Origin: Escherichia phage T5_ev219 | Length of the DNA stretch: 64,000 nucleotides | Strand: one strand, 5' to 3' | Sequence record: NC_134263.1 | Shown: positions 4,276 to 35,492 of the stretch, piece by piece | Layout: every line of letters starts with the position of its first letter | Numbering within the stretch: the first letter of the stretch is position 1 | Made by a program: the position numbers and the translations under genes | The notes under the pieces: model-generated | The model's input: the letters and a program-made list of their open reading frames with translations, nothing else | Database searches by the model: none | What the model was told of the DNA's origin: nothing

Positions 4276-4437
4276 GTTGTTTCTCCAGTTTCATTTTTAA
4301 TAGTTTACAGATGAAATCAACGTCTTCATCTGTGCCTAAGTCTCTATCCTCAAGGGTCGCCTTGAAGTTTTTCGTCAATTCCATGAGGATGATTTCCCTA
4401 GAACGACGTGTTGGCGGAGGTGGATGTCTATACATCT
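4273..4437 (-). CDS. hypothetical small protein (about 55 aa, below ORF-track cutoff)
   Basis: Hand-translated MYRHPPPPTRRSREIILMELTKNF...; stop overlaps next start. Confidence 0.3.
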
Positions 4438-4450
4438 TATTTCCTTAATT

Positions 4451-4527
4451 TGGTAGGGGTGGTGGGATTCGAACCCACAAAACCTGAATTTTAAGTCCAG
4501 TACCTATGCCAATTCGATTACACCCCC
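4451..4527 (-). tRNA. tRNA with anticodon TAA (Leu-type anticodon, short variable arm), tentative
   Basis: Acceptor GGGGGTG/CACCCCT, anticodon stem CTGGA/TTCAG with loop CTTAAAA, T-arm GTGGG-TTCGAAT-CCCAC, encoded CCA; D-arm poorly paired. Confidence 0.5.
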
Positions 4528-4628
4528 GTGTAATCAGTTTATTAGTTGATACATATTATAGCCTAAAGAAAACCCTACTACTAATCCTACTAACCAACCA
4601 ATATAATAATCTTTTAATTTCACGGGTG

Positions 4629-4814
4629 TCAACCTCGTTCAATATCTAGAGAAATACCACAGGTAGGATTAATGCCTGTGCCTTTGCACGTCGGACAAAC
4701 CCAGATATTACAGAATGTATCCCCTGCTTCTGCATCAGAACTTTCTCCAACTCCTAGACAGTCAGGACAGGCACATTCTTCTAGCTCTTGCTTGAGTTCT
4801 TGAAACTTAGACAT
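4629..4814 (-). CDS. small Cys-rich protein (61 aa, CxxC pairs, zinc-finger-like)
   Basis: CACPDC...CPTCKGTG...C motif pattern. Confidence 0.5.
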   Translation of the reverse strand: MSKFQELKQELEECACPDCLGVGESSDAEAGDTFCNIWVCPTCKGTGINPTCGISLDIERG

Positions 4815-4823
4815 ATAGTTTCC

Positions 4824-5012
4824 TTATTCAATTACTTTTGAGGCTTCAAGGGAGTCGATATAGTGTACGTTTTCTACCATAATCATATAATCTGCCACTT
4901 TATCCATAGCCTGAGCTTCAGAGGTAGCCCTGGCTAACCTATATCCTTTTTTATATTCATCCGGGTATTCCCTATCTGGAATAAACACAACATAAACTAG
5001 GTATAGTTCCAC
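4824..5012 (-). CDS. hypothetical protein (62 aa)
   Basis: ORF directly downstream of tRNA-Met on the transcribed strand. Confidence 0.4.
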   Translation of the reverse strand: MELYLVYVVFIPDREYPDEYKKGYRLARATSEAQAMDKVADYMIMVENVHYIDSLEASKVIE

Positions 5013-5033
5013 TTGTAACCCCTCTAATTAAAC

Positions 5034-5111
5034 TGGTGGCTCCCCGAGGATTCGAACCTACGTACCTTCCGGTTATGAGCCGGGTGCTCATACCATATGA
5101 GCTTGAGAACC
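5034..5111 (-). tRNA. tRNA-Met (anticodon CAT), tentative
   Basis: Acceptor GGTTCTC/GGGAGCC with G-U pairs, anticodon loop CTCATAA flanked by CCGG stems, T-loop TTCGAAT, encoded CCA; T-stem imperfect. Confidence 0.55.
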
Positions 5112-5117
5112 AGAATT

Positions 5118-5207
5118 TGGCGGAAGAAGTGGGAATCGAACCCACAAGGCTATATTTCAAACCGACAGATTAGCAATCTGCTGCAATACCGTTATGCTAT
5201 TCTTCCG
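5118..5207 (-). tRNA. tRNA-Ser (anticodon GCT), long variable arm
   Basis: Acceptor GGAAGAA/TTCTTCC, anticodon stem CAGA/TCTG with loop TTGCTAA, long variable arm, T-arm GTGGG-TTCGATT-CCCAC, encoded CCA. Confidence 0.8.
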
Positions 5208-5221
5208 AATTTATAAGATAT

Positions 5222-5250
5222 ATTATATTAGAAATTTAGCTTCATAGCAA
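5222..5250 (-). promoter_or_regulatory. sigma70-type early promoter driving tRNA-Ser/Met cluster
   Basis: ATTATA 5222-5227, TAGCAA 5245-5250, 17-bp spacer. Confidence 0.55.
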
Positions 5251-5310
5251 GAAAATTTTTCAAGTTTTCGGTAGACATCTCATCCACATCTACAGGAGAA
5301 ACAAATCCAT

Positions 5311-5745
5311 TTAATTGTCTAGCAAATTTTCACCAGCAGGATCATTATCCCCAACAGCTACCAATTTAAAAGGTAATAATTTCAGTTGCTTTAATAACGC
5401 TTTTCCTGGAGAAGAACCCAACATTGCTAGGGCTGGATAACCAGCGTTATGTAACGCAACTGCCTTAAATACAGATTCAGCGATCAATACTACTTTTTCA
5501 TCTCCATTGAGAGTTTCTAGTCCCCATACACACTGGGTAGTAGAATAAGTAAAATATTTAGCTTCAAAGGGACACTTACCATGACCTTTTGGAGCAGAAG
5601 GATTATAAGTTTGATAGCCCCTCAACATCCCAGAGAAGTCATACAACGGGACTGTTAGCCATCCTTCCGGACTTAACCAGCAATGATATTTTTCTGTATC
5701 AAATCCTCTAGATAAGAGGTGCTGTGTTAGCTCATCAACATTCAT
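5311..5745 (-). CDS. stand-alone TOPRIM-domain protein
   Basis: IAESVF (Toprim Glu) and VAVGDNDPAG (DxD) motifs; start moved to MNVDELT because ORF-track start lies upstream of the promoter at 5776-5804; RBS GAGAGAGGAA. Confidence 0.5.
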   Translation of the reverse strand: MNVDELTQHLLSRGFDTEKYHCWLSPEGWLTVPLYDFSGMLRGYQTYNPSAPKGHGKCPFEAKYFTYSTTQCVWGLETLNGDEKVVLIAESVFKAVALHNAGYPALAMLGSSPGKALLKQLKLLPFKLVAVGDNDPAGENLLDN

Positions 5746-5775
5746 ATCTGGTTCCTCTCTCAAATTTATAGATAT

Positions 5776-5804
5776 ATTATACAGAGAATTTAGCATTCAA
5801 GCAA
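5776..5804 (-). promoter_or_regulatory. sigma70-type early promoter
   Basis: ATTATA 5776-5781, AAGCAA 5799-5804, 17-bp spacer, conserved downstream ATAAATTTGAGAGAGG leader. Confidence 0.6.
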
Positions 5805-5920
5805 TCAAATTTTTTAACTTTTTAGAGGAAAATCATAGGGCACTTAAGGGCAGCAGATAAGTGGTGAGGACCAAAATTTGTGACCCCACTAAAAATCCGG
5901 GGGCAATTTTTAAAGACCCT

Positions 5921-5949
5921 TTGACATTTTCGCCGGGGTAGTGTAAAGT
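5921..5949 (+). promoter_or_regulatory. plus-strand sigma70 promoter (TTGACATTTTCGCCG class)
   Basis: TTGACA 5921-5926, 17-bp spacer, TAAAGT -10; the 15-mer TTGACATTTTCGCCG recurs at 34561. Confidence 0.5.
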
Positions 5950-6011
5950 ATATGTTATGGATGAGTGATCAAAGAGACACACATTTTCTATATACTAGGA
6001 GGTGTCAAAAA

Positions 6012-6992
6012 ATGACAGAAGAAGTAGCTAAGAGTCCTGAGACCGTCGCTAGCGTAGCAGCAGAACTGCATCGTCACGAGGAATCAGATAAGAAAAAGTG
6101 GGAGAAGGTCAGAGCCTACGAAGAAGAACATCGTGAACACGATGATAAAGATGAAGAAGATGACGATGATGTACGTTGTCATAAATATGGAAAATATAAA
6201 ATGCAAGAACCAGTAAACGTATTTACTAACGGCTTCCCTGGCATGGGTGCATTCCCAGCTAACGCAAGTGCTTTCGGTGGAGAAGGTATGGGTCTATTCG
6301 GAGCTATCCTAATCGGTGCTCTATTAACCGGCGGATTTGGTGGTTTTGGTGGTTTTGGTCGTGGTGCTGGCGTTGCCGCTGAAGGAACCGCTGTGGACGC
6401 GATCCTTTCTAACCAGGATACTGCAAGTATTCTAGCTGCAATCAATACTACTCGTACAGAAGCTAACCAGGGCACTGGGGCTGTTCTAAGTGCAGTAAAC
6501 GGTGTGGGAGCTGCTCAAGCTGCTAGCACTCAGCAAGTTCTGACTACTATCTACGGTACAGGTGCTAATCTGTCAAACCAGATCTGTGCTGAAACTCGTA
6601 ACGTTATTCAGGGTCAGTTCGATCTTTCTCGTCAGATGGATCAATCTTTCGCTGCTAACCAGATAGCACGTGCTCAAGATAAGTTTGACTCTGCTCAGAT
6701 TGCTTTCCAGCAGTCTATTCAGACCAACAACCAGTTTGCCGCTGTTCAGGCTCAGATGTGCGCTAACCAGAACGCTATCGAACGTCAGCTTGCTGAATGT
6801 TGCTGTGAGCTTCAGACTGCGATCGCTGGTGTAACTACTGCACGTATCCAGGACGAACTGAATGAATGCCGTCTGCGCGAAGCAATCGCTGCAGGTAGCG
6901 GTGCAAATGGTCAGGTAATCAACCAAATCGCTGTAAGTCTTGGTGCTATCACTCAGACTCTGGCTGGTCTGCAGGCTAAACTGCCGGCTTAA
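6012..6992 (+). CDS. hypothetical protein: acidic N-terminus, Gly-rich hydrophobic segment, Q/A/N-rich C-terminal half
   Basis: AGGAGG RBS before ATG 6012; DDKDEEDDDD tract, GMGLFGAILIGALLTGGFGGFGGFG segment; host-like optimised codons (CGT, CTG, GGT). Confidence 0.6.
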   Translation: MTEEVAKSPETVASVAAELHRHEESDKKKWEKVRAYEEEHREHDDKDEEDDDDVRCHKYGKYKMQEPVNVFTNGFPGMGAFPANASAFGGEGMGLFGAILIGALLTGGFGGFGGFGRGAGVAAEGTAVDAILSNQDTASILAAINTTRTEANQGTGAVLSAVNGVGAAQAASTQQVLTTIYGTGANLSNQICAETRNVIQGQFDLSRQMDQSFAANQIARAQDKFDSAQIAFQQSIQTNNQFAAVQAQMCANQNAIERQLAECCCELQTAIAGVTTARIQDELNECRLREAIAAGSGANGQVINQIAVSLGAITQTLAGLQAKLPA

Positions 6993-7013
6993 AATTAAGG
7001 GGAGGAGCCCATT

Positions 7014-7430
7014 ATGAGTAAATATGGTTTTGTGAACAACGGATTTAATCAACCAATGGGCTCCCAGCAGCCCGTTCCGGGTCTGGATAATCCTTACCTA
7101 CAACAGTTGCAACAGCGTTTAGCAGAAGCGCAACAGATGCAGCAACAACTCCAGCAAAACCCTGGAAGTGTGAGTCCTATGCAAATGATGCAGCAAATGA
7201 GCGGGCAGTCGCAAATGCCTCAACAAATGCATCAACAGGTGACTCAGCAGCAAGTTCAGCAGCAAACCCAACAACCGCAGGTTTCTGCGGAAGGACAGGC
7301 AGTACTAGCCCTTTTCGAAGACTTCGCAAAGACAGAGGATGGGAAGCAGCTTGTATCACTTATGGGTAAGTTTAATAGCTTCTGCCAAAGCCAAATTGCA
7401 AAAGCTCAAAATAGCGGTAATAACTCCTAA
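7014..7430 (+). CDS. hypothetical Q-rich protein (138 aa)
   Basis: RBS GGGGAGGAG; extended polyglutamine-rich low-complexity region. Confidence 0.55.
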   Translation: MSKYGFVNNGFNQPMGSQQPVPGLDNPYLQQLQQRLAEAQQMQQQLQQNPGSVSPMQMMQQMSGQSQMPQQMHQQVTQQQVQQQTQQPQVSAEGQAVLALFEDFAKTEDGKQLVSLMGKFNSFCQSQIAKAQNSGNNS

Positions 7431-7439
7431 GGAGGAATT

Positions 7440-7634
7440 ATGTGTTGCAGAAAATCTGTTTCGTGCTGCCCAATGCCTGTAGCACGTTGTTGCTCTCCAG
7501 CAATGTTTACGCAAATACCGGCGTTCAATCCGTTTGCCTTTAAGCCTACTCTTATCCTGCCCCCTAGAGTAGATTTTCAGTCAAGATTGGCCTCCCGTAT
7601 GGGTGGTTGCTGTAACAAGAGTATATGGTTCTAA
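7440..7634 (+). CDS. hypothetical Cys-doublet peptide (64 aa, four CC pairs)
   Basis: RBS AAGGAGGA; MCCRKSVSCC...RCC...GGCC pattern. Confidence 0.5.
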   Translation: MCCRKSVSCCPMPVARCCSPAMFTQIPAFNPFAFKPTLILPPRVDFQSRLASRMGGCCNKSIWF

Positions 7635-7649
7635 GGAACCAAACAATAA

Positions 7650-7686
7650 AGCCCCTAGTCGAAAGACTTAGGGGCTTTTCTTTTAT
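7650..7686 (+). terminator. rho-independent terminator ending the plus-strand module
   Basis: Hairpin AGCCCCTA-gtcgaaagac-TTAGGGGCT followed by TTTTCTTTT. Confidence 0.7.
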
Positions 7687-7690
7687 CTTA

Positions 7691-7731
7691 AATACAGAAA
7701 AGCCCTGCGCTCTCCAGGGAACGCAGGGCTT
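7691..7731 (-). terminator. rho-independent terminator for minus-strand SPFH gene
   Basis: Hairpin AAGCCCTGCG...CGCAGGGCTT followed on minus strand by TTTTCTGTATTT. Confidence 0.65.
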
Positions 7732-7754
7732 ACTTCGAATATTACGTGTGGGTA

Positions 7755-33538: not shown

Positions 33539-34510
33539 ATGACTAATGTAAAAGAATTTATTAAACGCTGTCAAGAAGCATATTATCAGGGTATGTCTTT
33601 AATCTCTGATGAGGAGTATGATTGCCTGGTAAAACGCTTCCCGTTAGAAGAAGAGATCGGGCCTAGGGGTGATATTCCACATCTGTATCGTATGTATTCT
33701 TTACAGAAAGTTTACTATAACCGTGGAGATAAATCACCATTCAATCCTTTAGGTCAGGTGGAAACCGATAAGTTAGATGGTTGTGCAATTTCTCTGCTAT
33801 ATATTAATGGCGAATTTGTTCAAGCATTAACCCGTGGTAATGGTATTCTGGGGAATGATGTCACAAGCAACGTAAGATTGCTGAACATTCCTAAAAAGAT
33901 TTCCCAAAAAGTACCTACTCAAATCACTGGTGAAGTTCTAATTACAAAAGAAGTAGAAAATAAACGTAACTTTGCCTCTGGTGCTATTAACCTCAAAGAT
34001 AGTGATGCTTTCGTACAACGTATTGGAGAAGGTGGTTTAATCTTCGTTGCATACGGTATCCAGTGTTCTGCTGAATCTGTAGGTATTACAGAAGCATATT
34101 TAAAAGATATGCTTTGGCTGGAGAATGAGAACTTCTTAACAGTTGTTAATGTGCGTTCCTTCTTTAAATGGATTCCGACGGACGGTAAAGTTGTTCGTAT
34201 TAATGACAACAACAAATTCTTCCGTGAAGGCTGGACTAATAAATTCCCTCGTGGAGCATTCGCCATTAAAGAGGATGAAGAAGGCGAGATTACAACTCTT
34301 ACTAAAGTTGAATGGCAGGTAGGGGCTTCTGGTAAAGTAACTCCAGTCGGTTATTTTGAACCAGTAATTATTGATGATGCTACAATTGTTAAAGCGACTC
34401 TTAATAACGTTGATTATATTAACTCTCTTGATCTAGAGATCGGTTGCCAGATTCGAGTGATTCGTGCTGGTGGTGTAATCCCGTGCATAGTAGAGCGAGT
34501 ATACGATTAA
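33539..34510 (+). CDS. ligA: NAD-dependent DNA ligase, adenylation/OB part (subunit A of split ligase)
   Basis: LigA N-terminal Ia-like region and adenylation motif KLDG (ETDKLDGCAISLLY); no Zn-finger/HhH/BRCT, which are in the next ORF. Confidence 0.8.
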   Translation: MTNVKEFIKRCQEAYYQGMSLISDEEYDCLVKRFPLEEEIGPRGDIPHLYRMYSLQKVYYNRGDKSPFNPLGQVETDKLDGCAISLLYINGEFVQALTRGNGILGNDVTSNVRLLNIPKKISQKVPTQITGEVLITKEVENKRNFASGAINLKDSDAFVQRIGEGGLIFVAYGIQCSAESVGITEAYLKDMLWLENENFLTVVNVRSFFKWIPTDGKVVRINDNNKFFREGWTNKFPRGAFAIKEDEEGEITTLTKVEWQVGASGKVTPVGYFEPVIIDDATIVKATLNNVDYINSLDLEIGCQIRVIRAGGVIPCIVERVYD

Positions 34511-34560: not shown

Positions 34561-34589
34561 TTGACATTTTCGCCGCTTAGGTATATACT
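34561..34589 (+). promoter_or_regulatory. sigma70 promoter (TTGACATTTTCGCCG class) inside ligase spacer
   Basis: TTGACA 34561-34566, 17-bp spacer, TATACT 34584-34589; shares 15-mer with promoter at 5921. Confidence 0.5.
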
Positions 34590-34682: not shown

Positions 34683-34712
34683 ATTTATATAAATTGATAA
34701 GGAAGAAATTTG

Positions 34713-35492
34713 ATGAAAATCGAAATTCCAACACAATGTCCCTCTTGTGGTTCTAAGCTAGATCTTGTCAACGGACAATTATTCTGTCGTAATAAGTCCA
34801 ACTGTCCAGCGCAATCAAGTAAGTTAATTGAGAACTTCTGTTCAAAAATGAAGTTAAAGGGTTTTGGCCCAAAAACTATTGAGAAGCTGGAGCTGACGAA
34901 GATTTCAGAACTATTTTACCTAACCGAAGAAGATTTGGTTAGAGCCGTGGGTAGCAAGGTTGCCGCTAAGTTAATTAGCGAATTAAATACTAAAGTTCGC
35001 GGAGACATTGACTTTGGTTCAGTTCTCGGTTCTTTAGGAATCCCTCTAATCGGAGAGGTTGCAGCAAAGAAATTATCCCAAAATTGCACTAGCTTCCACG
35101 ATGTGAAGGCTGACGGCAAGGCTGGAGAAAACTATAAAGCCTGGCTAAATTCCCCACAGGGCAAGGATGTTATCGAATTACCGTGGAAATTCACAACTGG
35201 TATTAAAGGTGCTAAAGCTGAGGTCATCATCACTGATGGTCTAGTAGCCCAACCAAACGGAATAACGGTATGTATTACCGGATCTTTGCAAGATTTTGCA
35301 AATAGAACGGATGCAACAAACTATTTAGAAGGTCTAGGATATACGGTTAAGAAATCCGTTACCAAAGACGTCAAATACCTAATCTGTGAGGATGAATCTA
35401 AGCGTTCTTCCTCATCTTATAAGAAAGCCGAAACGAATGGGATAGAAATCCTGTCGATTAAAGAACTATTGGAGAAAAATAATAATGTCTAA
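34713..35492 (+). CDS. ligB: NAD-dependent DNA ligase C-terminal part (Zn finger, HhH, BRCT; subunit B)
   Basis: CPSCGSKL...C..C Zn finger, helix-hairpin-helix GFGPKTIEKL / LGIPLIGEVAAKKL, BRCT-like ITVCITGSL. Confidence 0.75.
   Translation: MKIEIPTQCPSCGSKLDLVNGQLFCRNKSNCPAQSSKLIENFCSKMKLKGFGPKTIEKLELTKISELFYLTEEDLVRAVGSKVAAKLISELNTKVRGDIDFGSVLGSLGIPLIGEVAAKKLSQNCTSFHDVKADGKAGENYKAWLNSPQGKDVIELPWKFTTGIKGAKAEVIITDGLVAQPNGITVCITGSLQDFANRTDATNYLEGLGYTVKKSVTKDVKYLICEDESKRSSSSYKKAETNGIEILSIKELLEKNNNV

What the first reader, a model, noticed from the sequence alone, without database searches (positions are those of the whole stretch)
5900..7745. Self-contained plus-strand three-gene module in a minus-strand region
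Three genes (6012-6992 acidic/Gly-rich/QAN-rich protein; 7014-7430 polyglutamine-rich protein; 7440-7634 64-aa peptide with four Cys-Cys doublets) run against the surrounding transcription. They have their own promoter (TTGACATTTTCGCCG class), strong RBSs and a dedicated terminator, and face a convergent terminator of the SPFH gene. Codons are host-optimised, suggesting very high expression. I recognise no enzymatic motif; the composition is unlike a canonical holin/spanin cassette. This is my best candidate for an undescribed host-takeover or anti-defence module.
Basis: partly seen in the sequence, partly recalled or inferred. Interest (0 to 1): 0.75.

Follow-up and report, generated by a model that had tools for sequence, protein, structure and literature searches.

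The report
Mobile cysteine-rich three-gene phage cassette
The three genes are real: they are the long-annotated but never characterised phage T5 genes T5.077-T5.079, and they form a dispensable, self-contained cassette shared by unrelated phages, encoding a glycine- and cysteine-rich coiled-coil protein, a glutamine-rich partner and an 'MCC...' mini-peptide whose function is unknown.

Summary
The window comes from a T5-like phage. Region 5900-7745 matches T5 genes T5.077, T5.078 and T5.079, with promoter P12, a bidirectional terminator and the 32.6% nick. All of this has been annotated in T5 and BF23 since 2004, with the proteins called hypothetical.

What is new is that the unit is a discrete mobile cassette. 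Window 5983-7674 is cleanly missing from the Tequintavirus Bas33 and from the lab mutant T5st0. Only about half of close T5 relatives carry it. CRISPRi knock-down of each gene has no fitness effect.

The same three genes, in the same order, occur in an N4-like phage, two lambdoid phages (antisense, between Q and the holin) and Pseudomonas phages RSP/KPP23. In those phages a small zinc-ribbon gene is transcribed divergently next to them.

Gene 1 has a glycine-zipper hydrophobic segment and a long helical rod with an invariant ECCCE motif. Gene 3 peptides always start with MCC (or MC/MSC). No enzyme, lysis, structural, defence or solved-structure family matches.

My best reading is a moron-like accessory cassette that makes a membrane-associated, thiol-linked complex and gives a conditional benefit, most likely superinfection exclusion. 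The mechanism is inferred, not shown.

The parts
5921..5949 (+). Sigma-70-type promoter (TTGACA, 17 nt spacer, TAAAGT), equivalent to T5/BF23 promoter P12, with an A/T-rich stretch upstream.
   Evidence: Annotated as promoter P12 or putative early promoter T5P21 in T5 and BF23. An exact 15-mer copy lies at 34561.
5983..7674 (+). The cassette as a natural insertion/deletion unit: 5' leader, three genes and the first terminator hairpin (1,692 bp).
   Evidence: blastn against Tequintavirus Bas33/HildyBeyeler: window 5025-5890, 5939-5982 and 7675-9000 are collinear, and 5983-7674 is absent.
6012..6992 (+). Gene 1 (T5.077 homologue, 326 aa). It has an N-terminal helix (about residues 12-44), an acidic/His stretch, a Gly-zipper hydrophobic segment (94-118, 'GLFGAILIGALLTGGFGGFGGFG') and a helical rod of about 190 residues rich in A/Q/N/T, with an invariant ECCCE (C263-265).
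   Evidence: 433 family representatives; AF2, all-helical, pLDDT 69.7; Kyte-Doolittle hydropathy 1.72, borderline for a transmembrane segment.
7014..7430 (+). Gene 2 (T5.078 homologue, 138 aa). It has a conserved N-terminal helix (PYLQQLQQRLAEAQ), a variable Q/P-rich linker and a conserved C-terminal domain (LALFEDFAKTEDGKQLV..GKFNSFCQS) with one invariant Cys.
   Evidence: alignment A7. The 'cAMP-dependent protein kinase' label found in some records has no Pfam support.
7440..7634 (+). Gene 3 (T5.079 homologue, 64 aa). Pro/Phe/Cys-rich peptide starting MCC, with four CC doublets, an NPF motif and no signal peptide or lipobox.
   Evidence: alignment A6. Positional homologues starting MCC/MCGCC/MSCNC are found in 9 of 9 long-form cassettes examined.
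7648..7687 (+). Intrinsic terminator: a 13-pair G+C-rich hairpin followed by UUUUCUUUU. It is annotated as an efficient bidirectional terminator (ter1).
   Evidence: (dG -20.2 kcal/mol, z -5.7).
7697..7731 (-). Adjacent, not part of the cassette. This is the second hairpin, the terminator of the convergent SPFH gene (7755-8702, minus strand). It contains the GCGC consensus of the major T5 32.6% single-strand nick. It is retained in Bas33.

Best explanation
This is an accessory, horizontally mobile, moron-like cassette. It is an autonomous transcription unit: the early sigma-70 promoter P12, three tightly spaced genes, and an intrinsic bidirectional terminator. Phages gain and lose it as a block. 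These points are shown.

The following is inferred. The three non-enzymatic products assemble into one complex at the cytoplasmic membrane. Gene 1, the abundant subunit, anchors through its glycine-zipper, fusion-peptide-like hydrophobic segment and oligomerises through its long helical rod. Gene 2 docks through its conserved C-terminal 'TEDGK' domain. The MCC/CC peptide (gene 3) caps or cross-links the invariant ECCCE patch of gene 1 through thiol chemistry, either disulfides or shared metal ions.

The cassette is made early in T5 infection, and in temperate phages it is placed independently of the late operon. It is useless for lytic growth in laboratory hosts. Its most likely role is therefore a conditional protective function at the cell envelope, with superinfection exclusion or blocking of incoming phage DNA as my leading guess. 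In non-T5 hosts a divergent zinc-ribbon protein probably regulates it.
For: Discrete indel and dispensability: the cassette is missing cleanly from Bas33 and lies within the T5st0 deletion (one search compared). It is present in about 218 of about 440 phage records whose DNA polymerase is at least 90% identical. All three genes are 'Not Fit' by CRISPRi-ART.

Mobility as a unit: the same three genes in the same order occur in divergent T5-likes (L068, L073, L074). They also occur in an N4-like Gamaleyavirus relative (L069) whose isolate cousin lacks that segment. They occur in two lambdoid phages between antiterminator Q and holin-lysozyme-Rz on the opposite strand, with a bidirectional terminator after gene 3 (L071, L072). 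They occur in Pseudomonas phages RSP/KPP23 and L070. A conserved divergent zinc-ribbon ORF accompanies all five non-T5 copies.

One complex: co-inheritance, intergenic gaps of 9-21 nt in this window (up to about 65 nt, or overlapping, in the other copies), and conserved Cys in all three proteins. The two long variants examined that lack CCC (L078, L079) also lack the Cys peptide but keep a gene-2-like neighbour.

Membrane association: a conserved Gly-rich hydrophobic segment with Kyte-Doolittle hydropathy about 1.5-1.9 across the family, followed by Arg.

Abundance of gene 1: CAI about 0.49.

Non-enzymatic and novel: no hit in Pfam, PHROG functional categories, NCBIfam, PADLOC, PDB sequences or fold libraries.
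Against: No experiment or homology ties the cassette to exclusion or to any other phenotype.

The hydrophobic segment is only borderline for a transmembrane helix.

Genes 2 and 3 have no export signals. The complex would therefore sit in the reducing cytoplasm, where disulfides are unlikely. Thiol-metal bridging is pure inference.

High abundance is not typical of known exclusion proteins.

Short-form relatives of gene 1 lie among structural genes of uncultivated phages, which hints at a different ancestral role.

No copy was found in 100,044 representative bacterial genomes. A lysogenic-conversion role is therefore not backed by prophage data.

No sigma-70 consensus promoter was detected upstream of gene 1 in L069 or L072.
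Confidence: 0.35

Rival explanations
1. Anti-defence module: the complex neutralises or hides the infection from a host immune system that laboratory strains lack.
For: The cassette is accessory, shows presence/absence polymorphism and is expressed early. It lies in the T5 tRNA-rich accessory region, whose tRNA-Tyr and ORF75 (T5.076 homologue) counter retrons (PMC11555353; annotation in PMC11879866 supplementary file 8). It spreads across virulent phages of different families.
Against: There is no similarity to any characterised anti-defence protein. A three-protein, hydrophobic, coiled-coil and Cys-rich architecture is unlike the small soluble inhibitors, sponges or enzymes known so far. In lambdoid phages it sits antisense inside the late operon, like the lysogen-expressed gene bor, and it has its own putative regulator. 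That placement suits a host-protecting function better.
Confidence: 0.2
2. Lysis accessory or membrane-fusion device analogous to spanins: gene 1 acts like an i-spanin or viral fusion subunit, and gene 3 acts like a Pro/Cys-rich o-spanin.
For: The family profile weakly matches influenza HA2 and HEF2, from the fusion peptide into the long helix (best E 7.8e-4; T5 residues 94-99 'GLFGAI' equal HA2 1-6). It has helical rods with conserved Cys, as in Rz. Gene 3 is small and rich in Pro and Cys. The cassette lies next to lysis genes in L071, L072 and L079. Rz/Rz1 are also dispensable in standard media (from memory).
Against: Gene 3 has no signal peptide or lipobox. T5-likes, L071, L072 and L079 already carry canonical spanins (PMC11664485; Pfam Phage_lysis and DUF2514; an embedded lipoprotein ORF). 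The T5 promoter is an early sigma-70 type, and the cassette is antisense to the late operon in lambdoids. hhalign gives 1.2% probability against an HA2 sequence.
Confidence: 0.12
3. Cytoplasmic metal- or redox-handling complex: the Cys clusters and the acidic/His-rich N-terminus bind Zn, Cu or Ni, or buffer thiol stress during infection.
For: CCC is invariant, and CC doublets and one Cys in gene 2 are conserved. His/Asp/Glu-rich N-terminal stretches occur in several homologues, for example HHHHHEHYEEDDEDD in P0014. The peptides carry no export signals, which implies a reducing compartment. The accompanying gene encodes a zinc-ribbon protein.
Against: There are no canonical metal-binding motifs (CxxC, metallothionein-like CxC). 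His-richness is not conserved: short forms lack the whole N-terminus. There is no known reason for phages of this range to need it.
Confidence: 0.1
4. Intracellular scaffold: a filament or condensate built from an intermediate-filament-like rod protein, with a Gly-rich 'head', a Q-rich partner and a Cys/Pro-rich cross-linker. It would organise the infected cell.
For: AF2 predicts very long helices. The only fold matches are generic coiled coils, with vimentin at the top of Foldseek (not significant, E 2.7). Gene 1 has GGFGGFGGFG and GLFG repeats, and gene 2 is 27% Gln. Gene 1 is codon-optimised.
Against: All fold matches are non-significant. Q-richness of gene 2 is not conserved: the linker is variable and is P-rich in other copies. 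The cassette is dispensable, and no such structure has been reported for T5.
Confidence: 0.08
5. Virion-associated or ejection protein set, structural after all.
For: Short-form gene 1 relatives sit right after the major head protein or tail-fibre genes in uncultivated phages, eiAU, phiWae15 and Seuratvirus. The composition resembles tape-measure or ejection proteins.
Against: T5st0 and Bas33 make infectious virions without it. The T5 promoter is early. In lambdoids it lies outside the morphogenetic module and antisense to it. It is not among the known T5 virion proteins (from memory).
Confidence: 0.05

Closest known systems
Phage 'morons' such as lambda bor/lom, and the Q-to-S insertion site used by stx genes (established knowledge, from memory)
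   Same: It is an autonomous promoter-to-terminator unit inserted between backbone genes, often antisense to the flanking operon. It is dispensable for lytic growth, patchily distributed among close relatives and shared between unrelated phages.
   Different: It has three co-inherited genes, plus a regulator outside T5, rather than one. It is carried mostly by virulent phages (T5-like, N4-like). Its products resemble no known moron product. Expression from a prophage has not been shown.
Two-component spanins Rz/Rz1
   Same: It pairs a hydrophobic anchor plus helical rod carrying conserved Cys with a very small Pro- and Cys-containing partner. It is non-essential under laboratory conditions.
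   Different: The small peptide has no lipoprotein signal. Gene 1 has a long N-terminal extension before the hydrophobic segment. Placement is early or antisense. Canonical spanins coexist in the same genomes.
Class I viral fusion subunits (influenza HA2, HEF2)
   Same: The order of elements is the same: a Gly-rich hydrophobic 'GLFGAI...' segment, a Gly-rich linker, then a long helix rich in N/Q/I. The HMMER profile hits are almost exclusively HA2 and HEF2.
   Different: Scores are marginal (22 bits or less) and hhalign does not confirm them. There is no C-terminal transmembrane anchor, no cleavage site and no receptor-binding partner. I treat this as analogy or convergence, not homology.
Phage superinfection-exclusion membrane proteins (T4 Imm/Sp, T5 Llp, lambdoid Cor/SieB; from memory)
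   Same: They are early- or lysogen-expressed, non-essential, envelope-located and accessory.
   Different: There is no sequence or architectural similarity. Those are single small proteins or lipoproteins. An exclusion phenotype has not been tested here.
PHROG families 8119, 9288, 16490 (gene 1) and 7894 (gene 2)
   Same: The window proteins are full-length members (E 6.6e-195 and 4.9e-79). Distant family members hit 9288 and 16490.
   Different: All are 'unknown function'. Gene 3 has no PHROG (listed as a singleton in PMC11879866 supplementary file 8). The link between these families as one cassette was not recorded in those libraries.

Membership tests
T5 early operon T5.077-T5.079 (promoter P12, terminator ter1) | Nucleotide identity and synteny with the annotated T5/BF23 locus between the primase-like gene T5.076 and the SPFH gene T5.080 | tested here: met
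   96.5-97.7% identity over the full 1,846 bp, with the same flanking genes, promoter, terminator and nick.
Moron / autonomous accessory cassette | Own promoter and own terminator flanking the genes | tested here: met
   Promoter at 5921-5949 and hairpin at 7648-7678, annotated P12 and ter1. A terminator directly follows gene 3 in L072. A promoter was not detected by the simple scan in L069 or L072.
Moron / autonomous accessory cassette | Presence/absence between otherwise collinear close relatives, and occurrence in unrelated backbones | tested here: met
   Bas33 lacks window 5983-7674. A Gamaleyavirus isolate lacks L069 4177-6465. Copies occur in T5-like, N4-like, lambdoid and Pseudomonas phages.
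Moron / autonomous accessory cassette | Dispensable for lytic growth | tested here: met
   The T5st0 deletion spans it. CRISPRi-ART scores it 'Not Fit' (PMC11879866 supplement). Bas33 is viable without it.
Moron / autonomous accessory cassette | Expression from the prophage or independent of the late operon, with benefit to the host | not testable with these tools
   Only the antisense orientation in L071 and L072 suggests this. No expression data are available.
Two-component spanin (Rz/Rz1) | o-spanin: Sec signal peptide with a lipobox Cys | tested here: not met
   Gene 3 starts MCCRKS... with no hydrophobic signal region and a stop codon just upstream. The same holds in all nine homologues.
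Two-component spanin (Rz/Rz1) | Located in, and co-expressed with, the late lysis cassette, and the only spanin of the phage | tested here: not met
   Annotated as an early promoter. It is antisense to holin-lysozyme-Rz in L071 and L072. Separate Rz-like spanins are annotated in T5-like OSYSP.
Two-component spanin (Rz/Rz1) | i-spanin: N-terminal transmembrane domain followed by a periplasmic coiled coil with Cys | tested here: inconclusive
   A hydrophobic segment plus a helical rod with Cys exist. However, the segment is preceded by about 90 charged residues, is borderline for a transmembrane helix, and its topology is unknown.
Class I viral fusion protein (HA2-like) | Significant sequence or fold similarity to HA2/HEF2 across the fusion peptide and heptad repeat | tested here: inconclusive
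Holin | Small protein with one or more clear transmembrane domains, placed next to an endolysin | tested here: not met
   No holin Pfam or PHROG hit. At 326 aa it is mostly a soluble helical rod. The true holins are elsewhere.
cAMP-dependent protein kinase catalytic subunit (label on T5.078 in AY587007 and derived records) | Protein kinase catalytic domain | tested here: not met
   No Pkinase hit even at E<=1. The protein is 138 aa and 27% Gln.
Known anti-phage defence proteins (PADLOC-DB) | Match to any PADLOC model | tested here: not met
   Zero hits at E<=1 for the T5 and lambdoid copies and for a short-form relative.

The most novel reading that the evidence does not exclude
The cassette encodes a previously unrecognised kind of phage-borne envelope device. 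An abundant protein with a fusion-peptide-like glycine-zipper anchor forms an oligomeric coiled-coil assembly. Its invariant ECCCE ring is locked, by disulfide or metal-thiolate bonds, by dedicated MCC/CC mini-peptides and organised by a 'TEDGK'-domain adaptor. The assembly remodels or seals the host inner membrane, for example by closing the DNA-entry route to rival phages. The system is portable enough to work in Escherichia, Salmonella and Pseudomonas, and in both virulent and temperate phages.
Probability: 0.15. Interest if true: 0.8.

Novelty: new variant of a known kind. Interest (0 to 1): 0.5.

Why it matters
T5 is a classical model phage, yet these three genes have stayed 'hypothetical' for twenty years. 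Showing that they are one portable cassette turns three orphan ORFs into a defined, testable system. The cassette is shared by T5-like, N4-like, lambdoid and Pseudomonas phages. It has invariant and very unusual cysteine signatures and, outside T5, its own putative regulator. Natural knock-outs (Bas33, T5st0) and knock-ins already exist. If the cassette proves to be an exclusion, anti-defence or membrane-remodelling device, it would add a new protein architecture to phage-host and phage-phage conflict. It would also explain why about half of T5-like therapeutic candidates carry it. It also corrects a propagated mis-annotation ('cAMP-dependent protein kinase').

Tried and rejected
- **Family scans.** Pfam, PHROGs, NCBIfam and PADLOC scans of all three proteins, of the lambdoid copies and of 30 family members gave no functional family.
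- **PDB sequence searches.** Gene 1 alone gave nothing. Profiles for genes 2 and 3 gave nothing. The gene 1 family profile gave marginal HA2/HEF2 hits, which hhalign did not confirm. I kept this as an analogy only.
- **Spanin hypothesis.** Rejected as membership: no lipobox, and canonical spanins are present.
- **Virion-protein hypothesis.** Rejected for T5 because viable phages lack the cassette.
- **Q-rich protein near P0029 in L004.** BLASTP shows no similarity to gene 2.
- **Cys-peptide partners next to short-form relatives.** None found except in Seuratvirus STP-SP5.
- **First viral-contig scan (A1).** It returned almost only T5-likes.
- **Scan of 100,044 bacterial species genomes.** No relative found. 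blastn of the lambdoid copy against E. coli genomes also found none.
- **dN/dS for gene 3.** Too few substitutions among T5-likes to be informative.
- **Literature.** No paper text mentions T5.077-079. The AKFV33 proteomics paper, the Seuratvirus search and the Bas33 transcriptome paper gave nothing on these genes, beyond the later finding from the Bas33 genome record that it lacks the cassette.
Full report
**What is there.** The window is a T5-like (Tequintavirus) genome segment. Region 5900-7745 is 96.5% identical to phage T5 and 97.7% to BF23, and it matches 239 phage records. In the T5 and BF23 records the same stretch is annotated as follows:
- promoter P12 ('putative early promoter T5P21');
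- three ORFs with ribosome-binding sites (T5.077, 321-326 aa; T5.078, 138 aa; T5.079, 64 aa);
- an 'efficient bidirectional rho-independent terminator' (ter1);
- the major 32.6% single-strand nick.

All three proteins are labelled hypothetical. One record calls T5.078 a 'cAMP-dependent protein kinase catalytic subunit'. That label has spread to other phages and has no domain support.

**Check of the observation.** The 15-mer TTGACATTTTCGCCG recurs exactly once more in the window, at 34561, in front of another + strand gene. So a promoter 'class' is plausible. Codon optimisation applies to gene 1 only (CAI about 0.49, against a window median of 0.26 and 0.26/0.23 for genes 2 and 3, approximate). 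Rfam finds only tRNAs nearby.

**It is a discrete, dispensable cassette.** Four lines of evidence agree.
- The BASEL Tequintavirus Bas33 (HildyBeyeler) has the SPFH gene directly next to the T5.076 homologue. blastn shows the window collinear up to 5890, again over 5939-5982, and from 7675 onward. So 5983-7674 (leader, three genes and first hairpin, 1,692 bp) is missing.
- The laboratory deletion mutant T5st0 lacks the whole block from T5.069 to part of T5.081 (one search compared).
- About 440 phage records have a DNA polymerase at least 90% identical to the window's, but only about 218 T5-like records encode gene 1.
- In the CRISPRi-ART screen of T5, T5.077, T5.078 and T5.079 are each 'Not Fit' and 'unknown function' (PMC11879866 supplementary files 8 and 16).

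**It moves between unrelated phages as a unit.** Homologues of gene 1 at 37-55% identity were traced to their contigs. In every long-form case, gene 1 is followed by a gene 2 homologue and then a small ORF whose product begins MCC, MCGCC or MSCNC.

| Locus | Phage type | Notes |
|---|---|---|
| L068, L073, L074 | Divergent T5-likes | Same three genes, same order |
| L069 | N4-like Gamaleyavirus relative | Between the virion RNA polymerase and the replication genes, next to three tRNAs. The isolate VTCCBPA_322 lacks exactly that segment |
| L071, L072 | Lambdoid phages | Between antiterminator Q and holin-lysozyme-Rz, on the opposite strand, with a bidirectional terminator right after gene 3 |
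| RSP, KPP23, L070 | Pseudomonas phages | Same three genes |

All five non-T5 copies also carry a 48-67 aa zinc-ribbon ORF (RRYCPxCG...CPECG...CRQRKxR) transcribed divergently, immediately upstream of gene 1. In the lambdoid copies a 15-17 nt inverted repeat lies between them. T5-likes lack this ORF and have promoter P12 instead.

No copy was found in 100,044 representative bacterial genomes or in complete E. coli genomes.

**The proteins: gene 1.** Gene 1 belongs to a large, entirely uncharacterised phage family. There are 433 representatives at E<1e-3, in PHROGs 8119, 9288 and 16490.

The common core is a Gly-rich hydrophobic segment, a long A/Q/N/S/T-rich helical region, and usually an invariant ECCCE motif. 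The hydrophobic segment is often a GxxxGxxxG zipper and is followed by Arg. Its Kyte-Doolittle hydropathy is about 1.5-1.9, borderline for a transmembrane helix.

The cassette ('long') form adds a confident N-terminal helix and an acidic, often His-rich stretch. AF2 with 69 sequences gives an all-helical model (pLDDT 69.7, pTM 0.30).

**The proteins: genes 2 and 3.** Gene 2 has a conserved N-terminal helix, a variable Q/P-rich linker and a conserved C-terminal 'LFEEFAKTEDGKQLV..GKFN.FCQS' domain. So polyglutamine is not the conserved feature. A similar domain sits next to long variants that lack CCC (L078, L079).

Gene 3 peptides (49-91 aa) share an N-terminal Met followed by Cys at position 2 or 3 (MCC in most), a 'PV..CC' pair, Pro and Phe richness (often NPF) and usually a C-terminal CC. 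They have no signal peptide or lipobox. Gene callers mostly miss them: only one protein cluster exists.

**Short-form relatives of gene 1.** Short-form relatives in uncultivated phages lie after the major head protein. In Edwardsiella phage eiAU, Aeromonas phage phiWae15 and Seuratvirus STP-SP5 they lie after tail-fibre genes. They have other conserved neighbours and, apart from STP-SP5, no Cys peptide.

**What it is not.**
- *Not an enzyme or any recognised family.* There is no hit to lysis, structural, defence or solved-structure families.
- *Not the phage's spanin.* There is no lipoprotein signal, the promoter is early, and it is antisense to the late operon in lambdoids. Canonical Rz-type spanins coexist in T5-like OSYSP (PMC11664485) and in L071, L072 and L079.
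- *Not needed for virions or host takeover,* given the viable natural and laboratory deletions.

**An unexplained resemblance.** A profile of the gene 1 family hits, almost exclusively, influenza HA2 and HEF2 fusion subunits in the PDB (best E 7.8e-4). The alignment runs from the fusion peptide into the long helix. T5 residues 94-99, GLFGAI, equal HA2 residues 1-6. I treat this as architectural analogy: a membrane-inserting Gly-rich segment followed by a coiled coil.

**Best explanation and its limits.** What is shown: this is a moron-like, autonomous, mobile, dispensable cassette of three co-inherited non-enzymatic proteins with conserved cysteines.

What is inferred: the proteins form one membrane-associated, thiol-linked coiled-coil complex. 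Gene 1 is the abundant anchor and rod, gene 2 the adaptor, and gene 3 the CC cross-linker or cap.

The complex would be expressed early in T5, or independently of the late operon in temperate phages. It would give a conditional benefit at the envelope, most likely superinfection exclusion.

My confidence is:
- about 0.9 for the cassette description;
- about 0.45 for the membrane complex;
- about 0.25 for exclusion specifically;
- 0.35 overall.

Rivals are anti-defence (0.2), a spanin-like lysis or fusion accessory (0.12), metal or redox handling (0.1), a cytoskeletal or condensate scaffold (0.08) and a virion or ejection role (0.05).

**Novelty.** The locus and its regulatory signals are already annotated, and the kind of element (an accessory cassette or moron) is known. 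The following were not found in any library or paper searched: the recognition that T5.077-079 is a cross-family mobile unit, its fourth (zinc-ribbon) gene, the MCC-peptide family and the ECCCE signature. The protein content has no characterised relative.

Noticed in passing
window 5311-5796 (-): The divergent neighbour is the T5.076 homologue, a truncated primase/Toprim-like protein (PHROG 849). The CRISPRi-ART re-annotation lists T5.076 as 'subverts retron-mediated defense' and Semi-Fit. Azam et al. 2024 mapped an anti-retron activity to ORF75 of a T5-like phage. The cassette therefore borders a known counter-defence region.
   Followed up: partly
window 7697-7731 (about 7707-7710): The second hairpin, the SPFH gene terminator, contains the GCGC consensus annotated in T5 and BF23 as the major 32.6% single-strand nick. 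It is retained in Bas33, which lacks the cassette. The nick site therefore belongs to the backbone and not to the cassette.
   Followed up: partly
L069 4756-4911(-), L070 4746-4892(-), L075 3374-3520(-), L071 4744-4917(-), L072 4716-4919(-): A conserved 48-67 aa zinc-ribbon protein with a basic tail is transcribed divergently from gene 1 in every non-T5 copy of the cassette. It is probably its regulator. Lambdoid copies have a 15-17 nt inverted repeat (TTTCCACGGTGCTAA-TAC-TTAGCACCGTGGAAA) between the two genes.
   Followed up: partly
window 7014-7430; records AY587007, ESCO30/ESCO40, EH3, UTK0010: T5.078 homologues are labelled 'cAMP-dependent protein kinase catalytic subunit' in several GenBank and UniRef entries. 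No kinase domain is detectable, so this is a propagated mis-annotation.
   Followed up: yes
window 34561-34575 (+): There is an exact second copy of the 15-mer TTGACATTTTCGCCG (the -35 hexamer plus spacer). It lies 135 nt upstream of the + strand ORF 34710-35492, directly after ORF 33539-34510. It looks like a sister promoter of P12. The similarity does not extend to the transcribed region.
   Followed up: partly
window 4400-5210: Compared with T5 and BF23, this phage lacks the HNH homing endonuclease hegA (T5.075). In its place it has tRNA-Leu(taa) at 4451-4527, a 61-aa ORF with two CxxCxGxG-like motifs (4629-4814, -), a 62-aa ORF (4824-5012, -), and a tRNA seen by Rfam but not by ARAGORN (5037-5111).
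   Followed up: no
window 10328-10795 (-): The gene RefSeq calls 'endolysin' (T5.083) is a SleB-type cell-wall hydrolase (Hydrolase_2; the Pfam hit is on its homologues in L068 and L074) with an N-terminal signal-like sequence. It is distinct from the known T5 lysis endolysin. It stays near the cassette in divergent T5-likes (L068, L073, L074).
   Followed up: no
window 9313-9386 (-): ARAGORN calls a tRNA-Ser with the odd anticodon ACT inside the region annotated in T5 as stable 'RNAX' or a pseudo-tRNA. Rfam also scores it as a tRNA (37.9 bits).
   Followed up: no
L022-L067 (IMG/VR peat-type metagenome phages); L004 8001-8792: Short-form gene 1 relatives (about 240-290 aa, with CCC and no acidic N-terminus) are followed in 21 of 31 distinct loci by a conserved 98-aa protein of unknown function. 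They are often preceded by a small helix-turn-helix-like protein and by the major head protein. This is a different, possibly ancestral, context.
   Followed up: partly
L010 4905-5114 (Salmonella phage STP-SP5, Seuratvirus): A 69-aa 'MCGNACC...' Pro-rich peptide (PHROG 25697) lies four genes after a short-form gene 1 relative whose own C-terminus ends in ...GCC. This is the only short-form locus found with a gene-3-like peptide.
   Followed up: partly
L080 2678-2740 (Bas33/HildyBeyeler junction): In the cassette-less phage, the -10 region and the first about 35 nt of the P12 transcript are retained and run straight into the SPFH terminator and nick hairpin. This leaves an apparently orphan promoter.
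   Followed up: no
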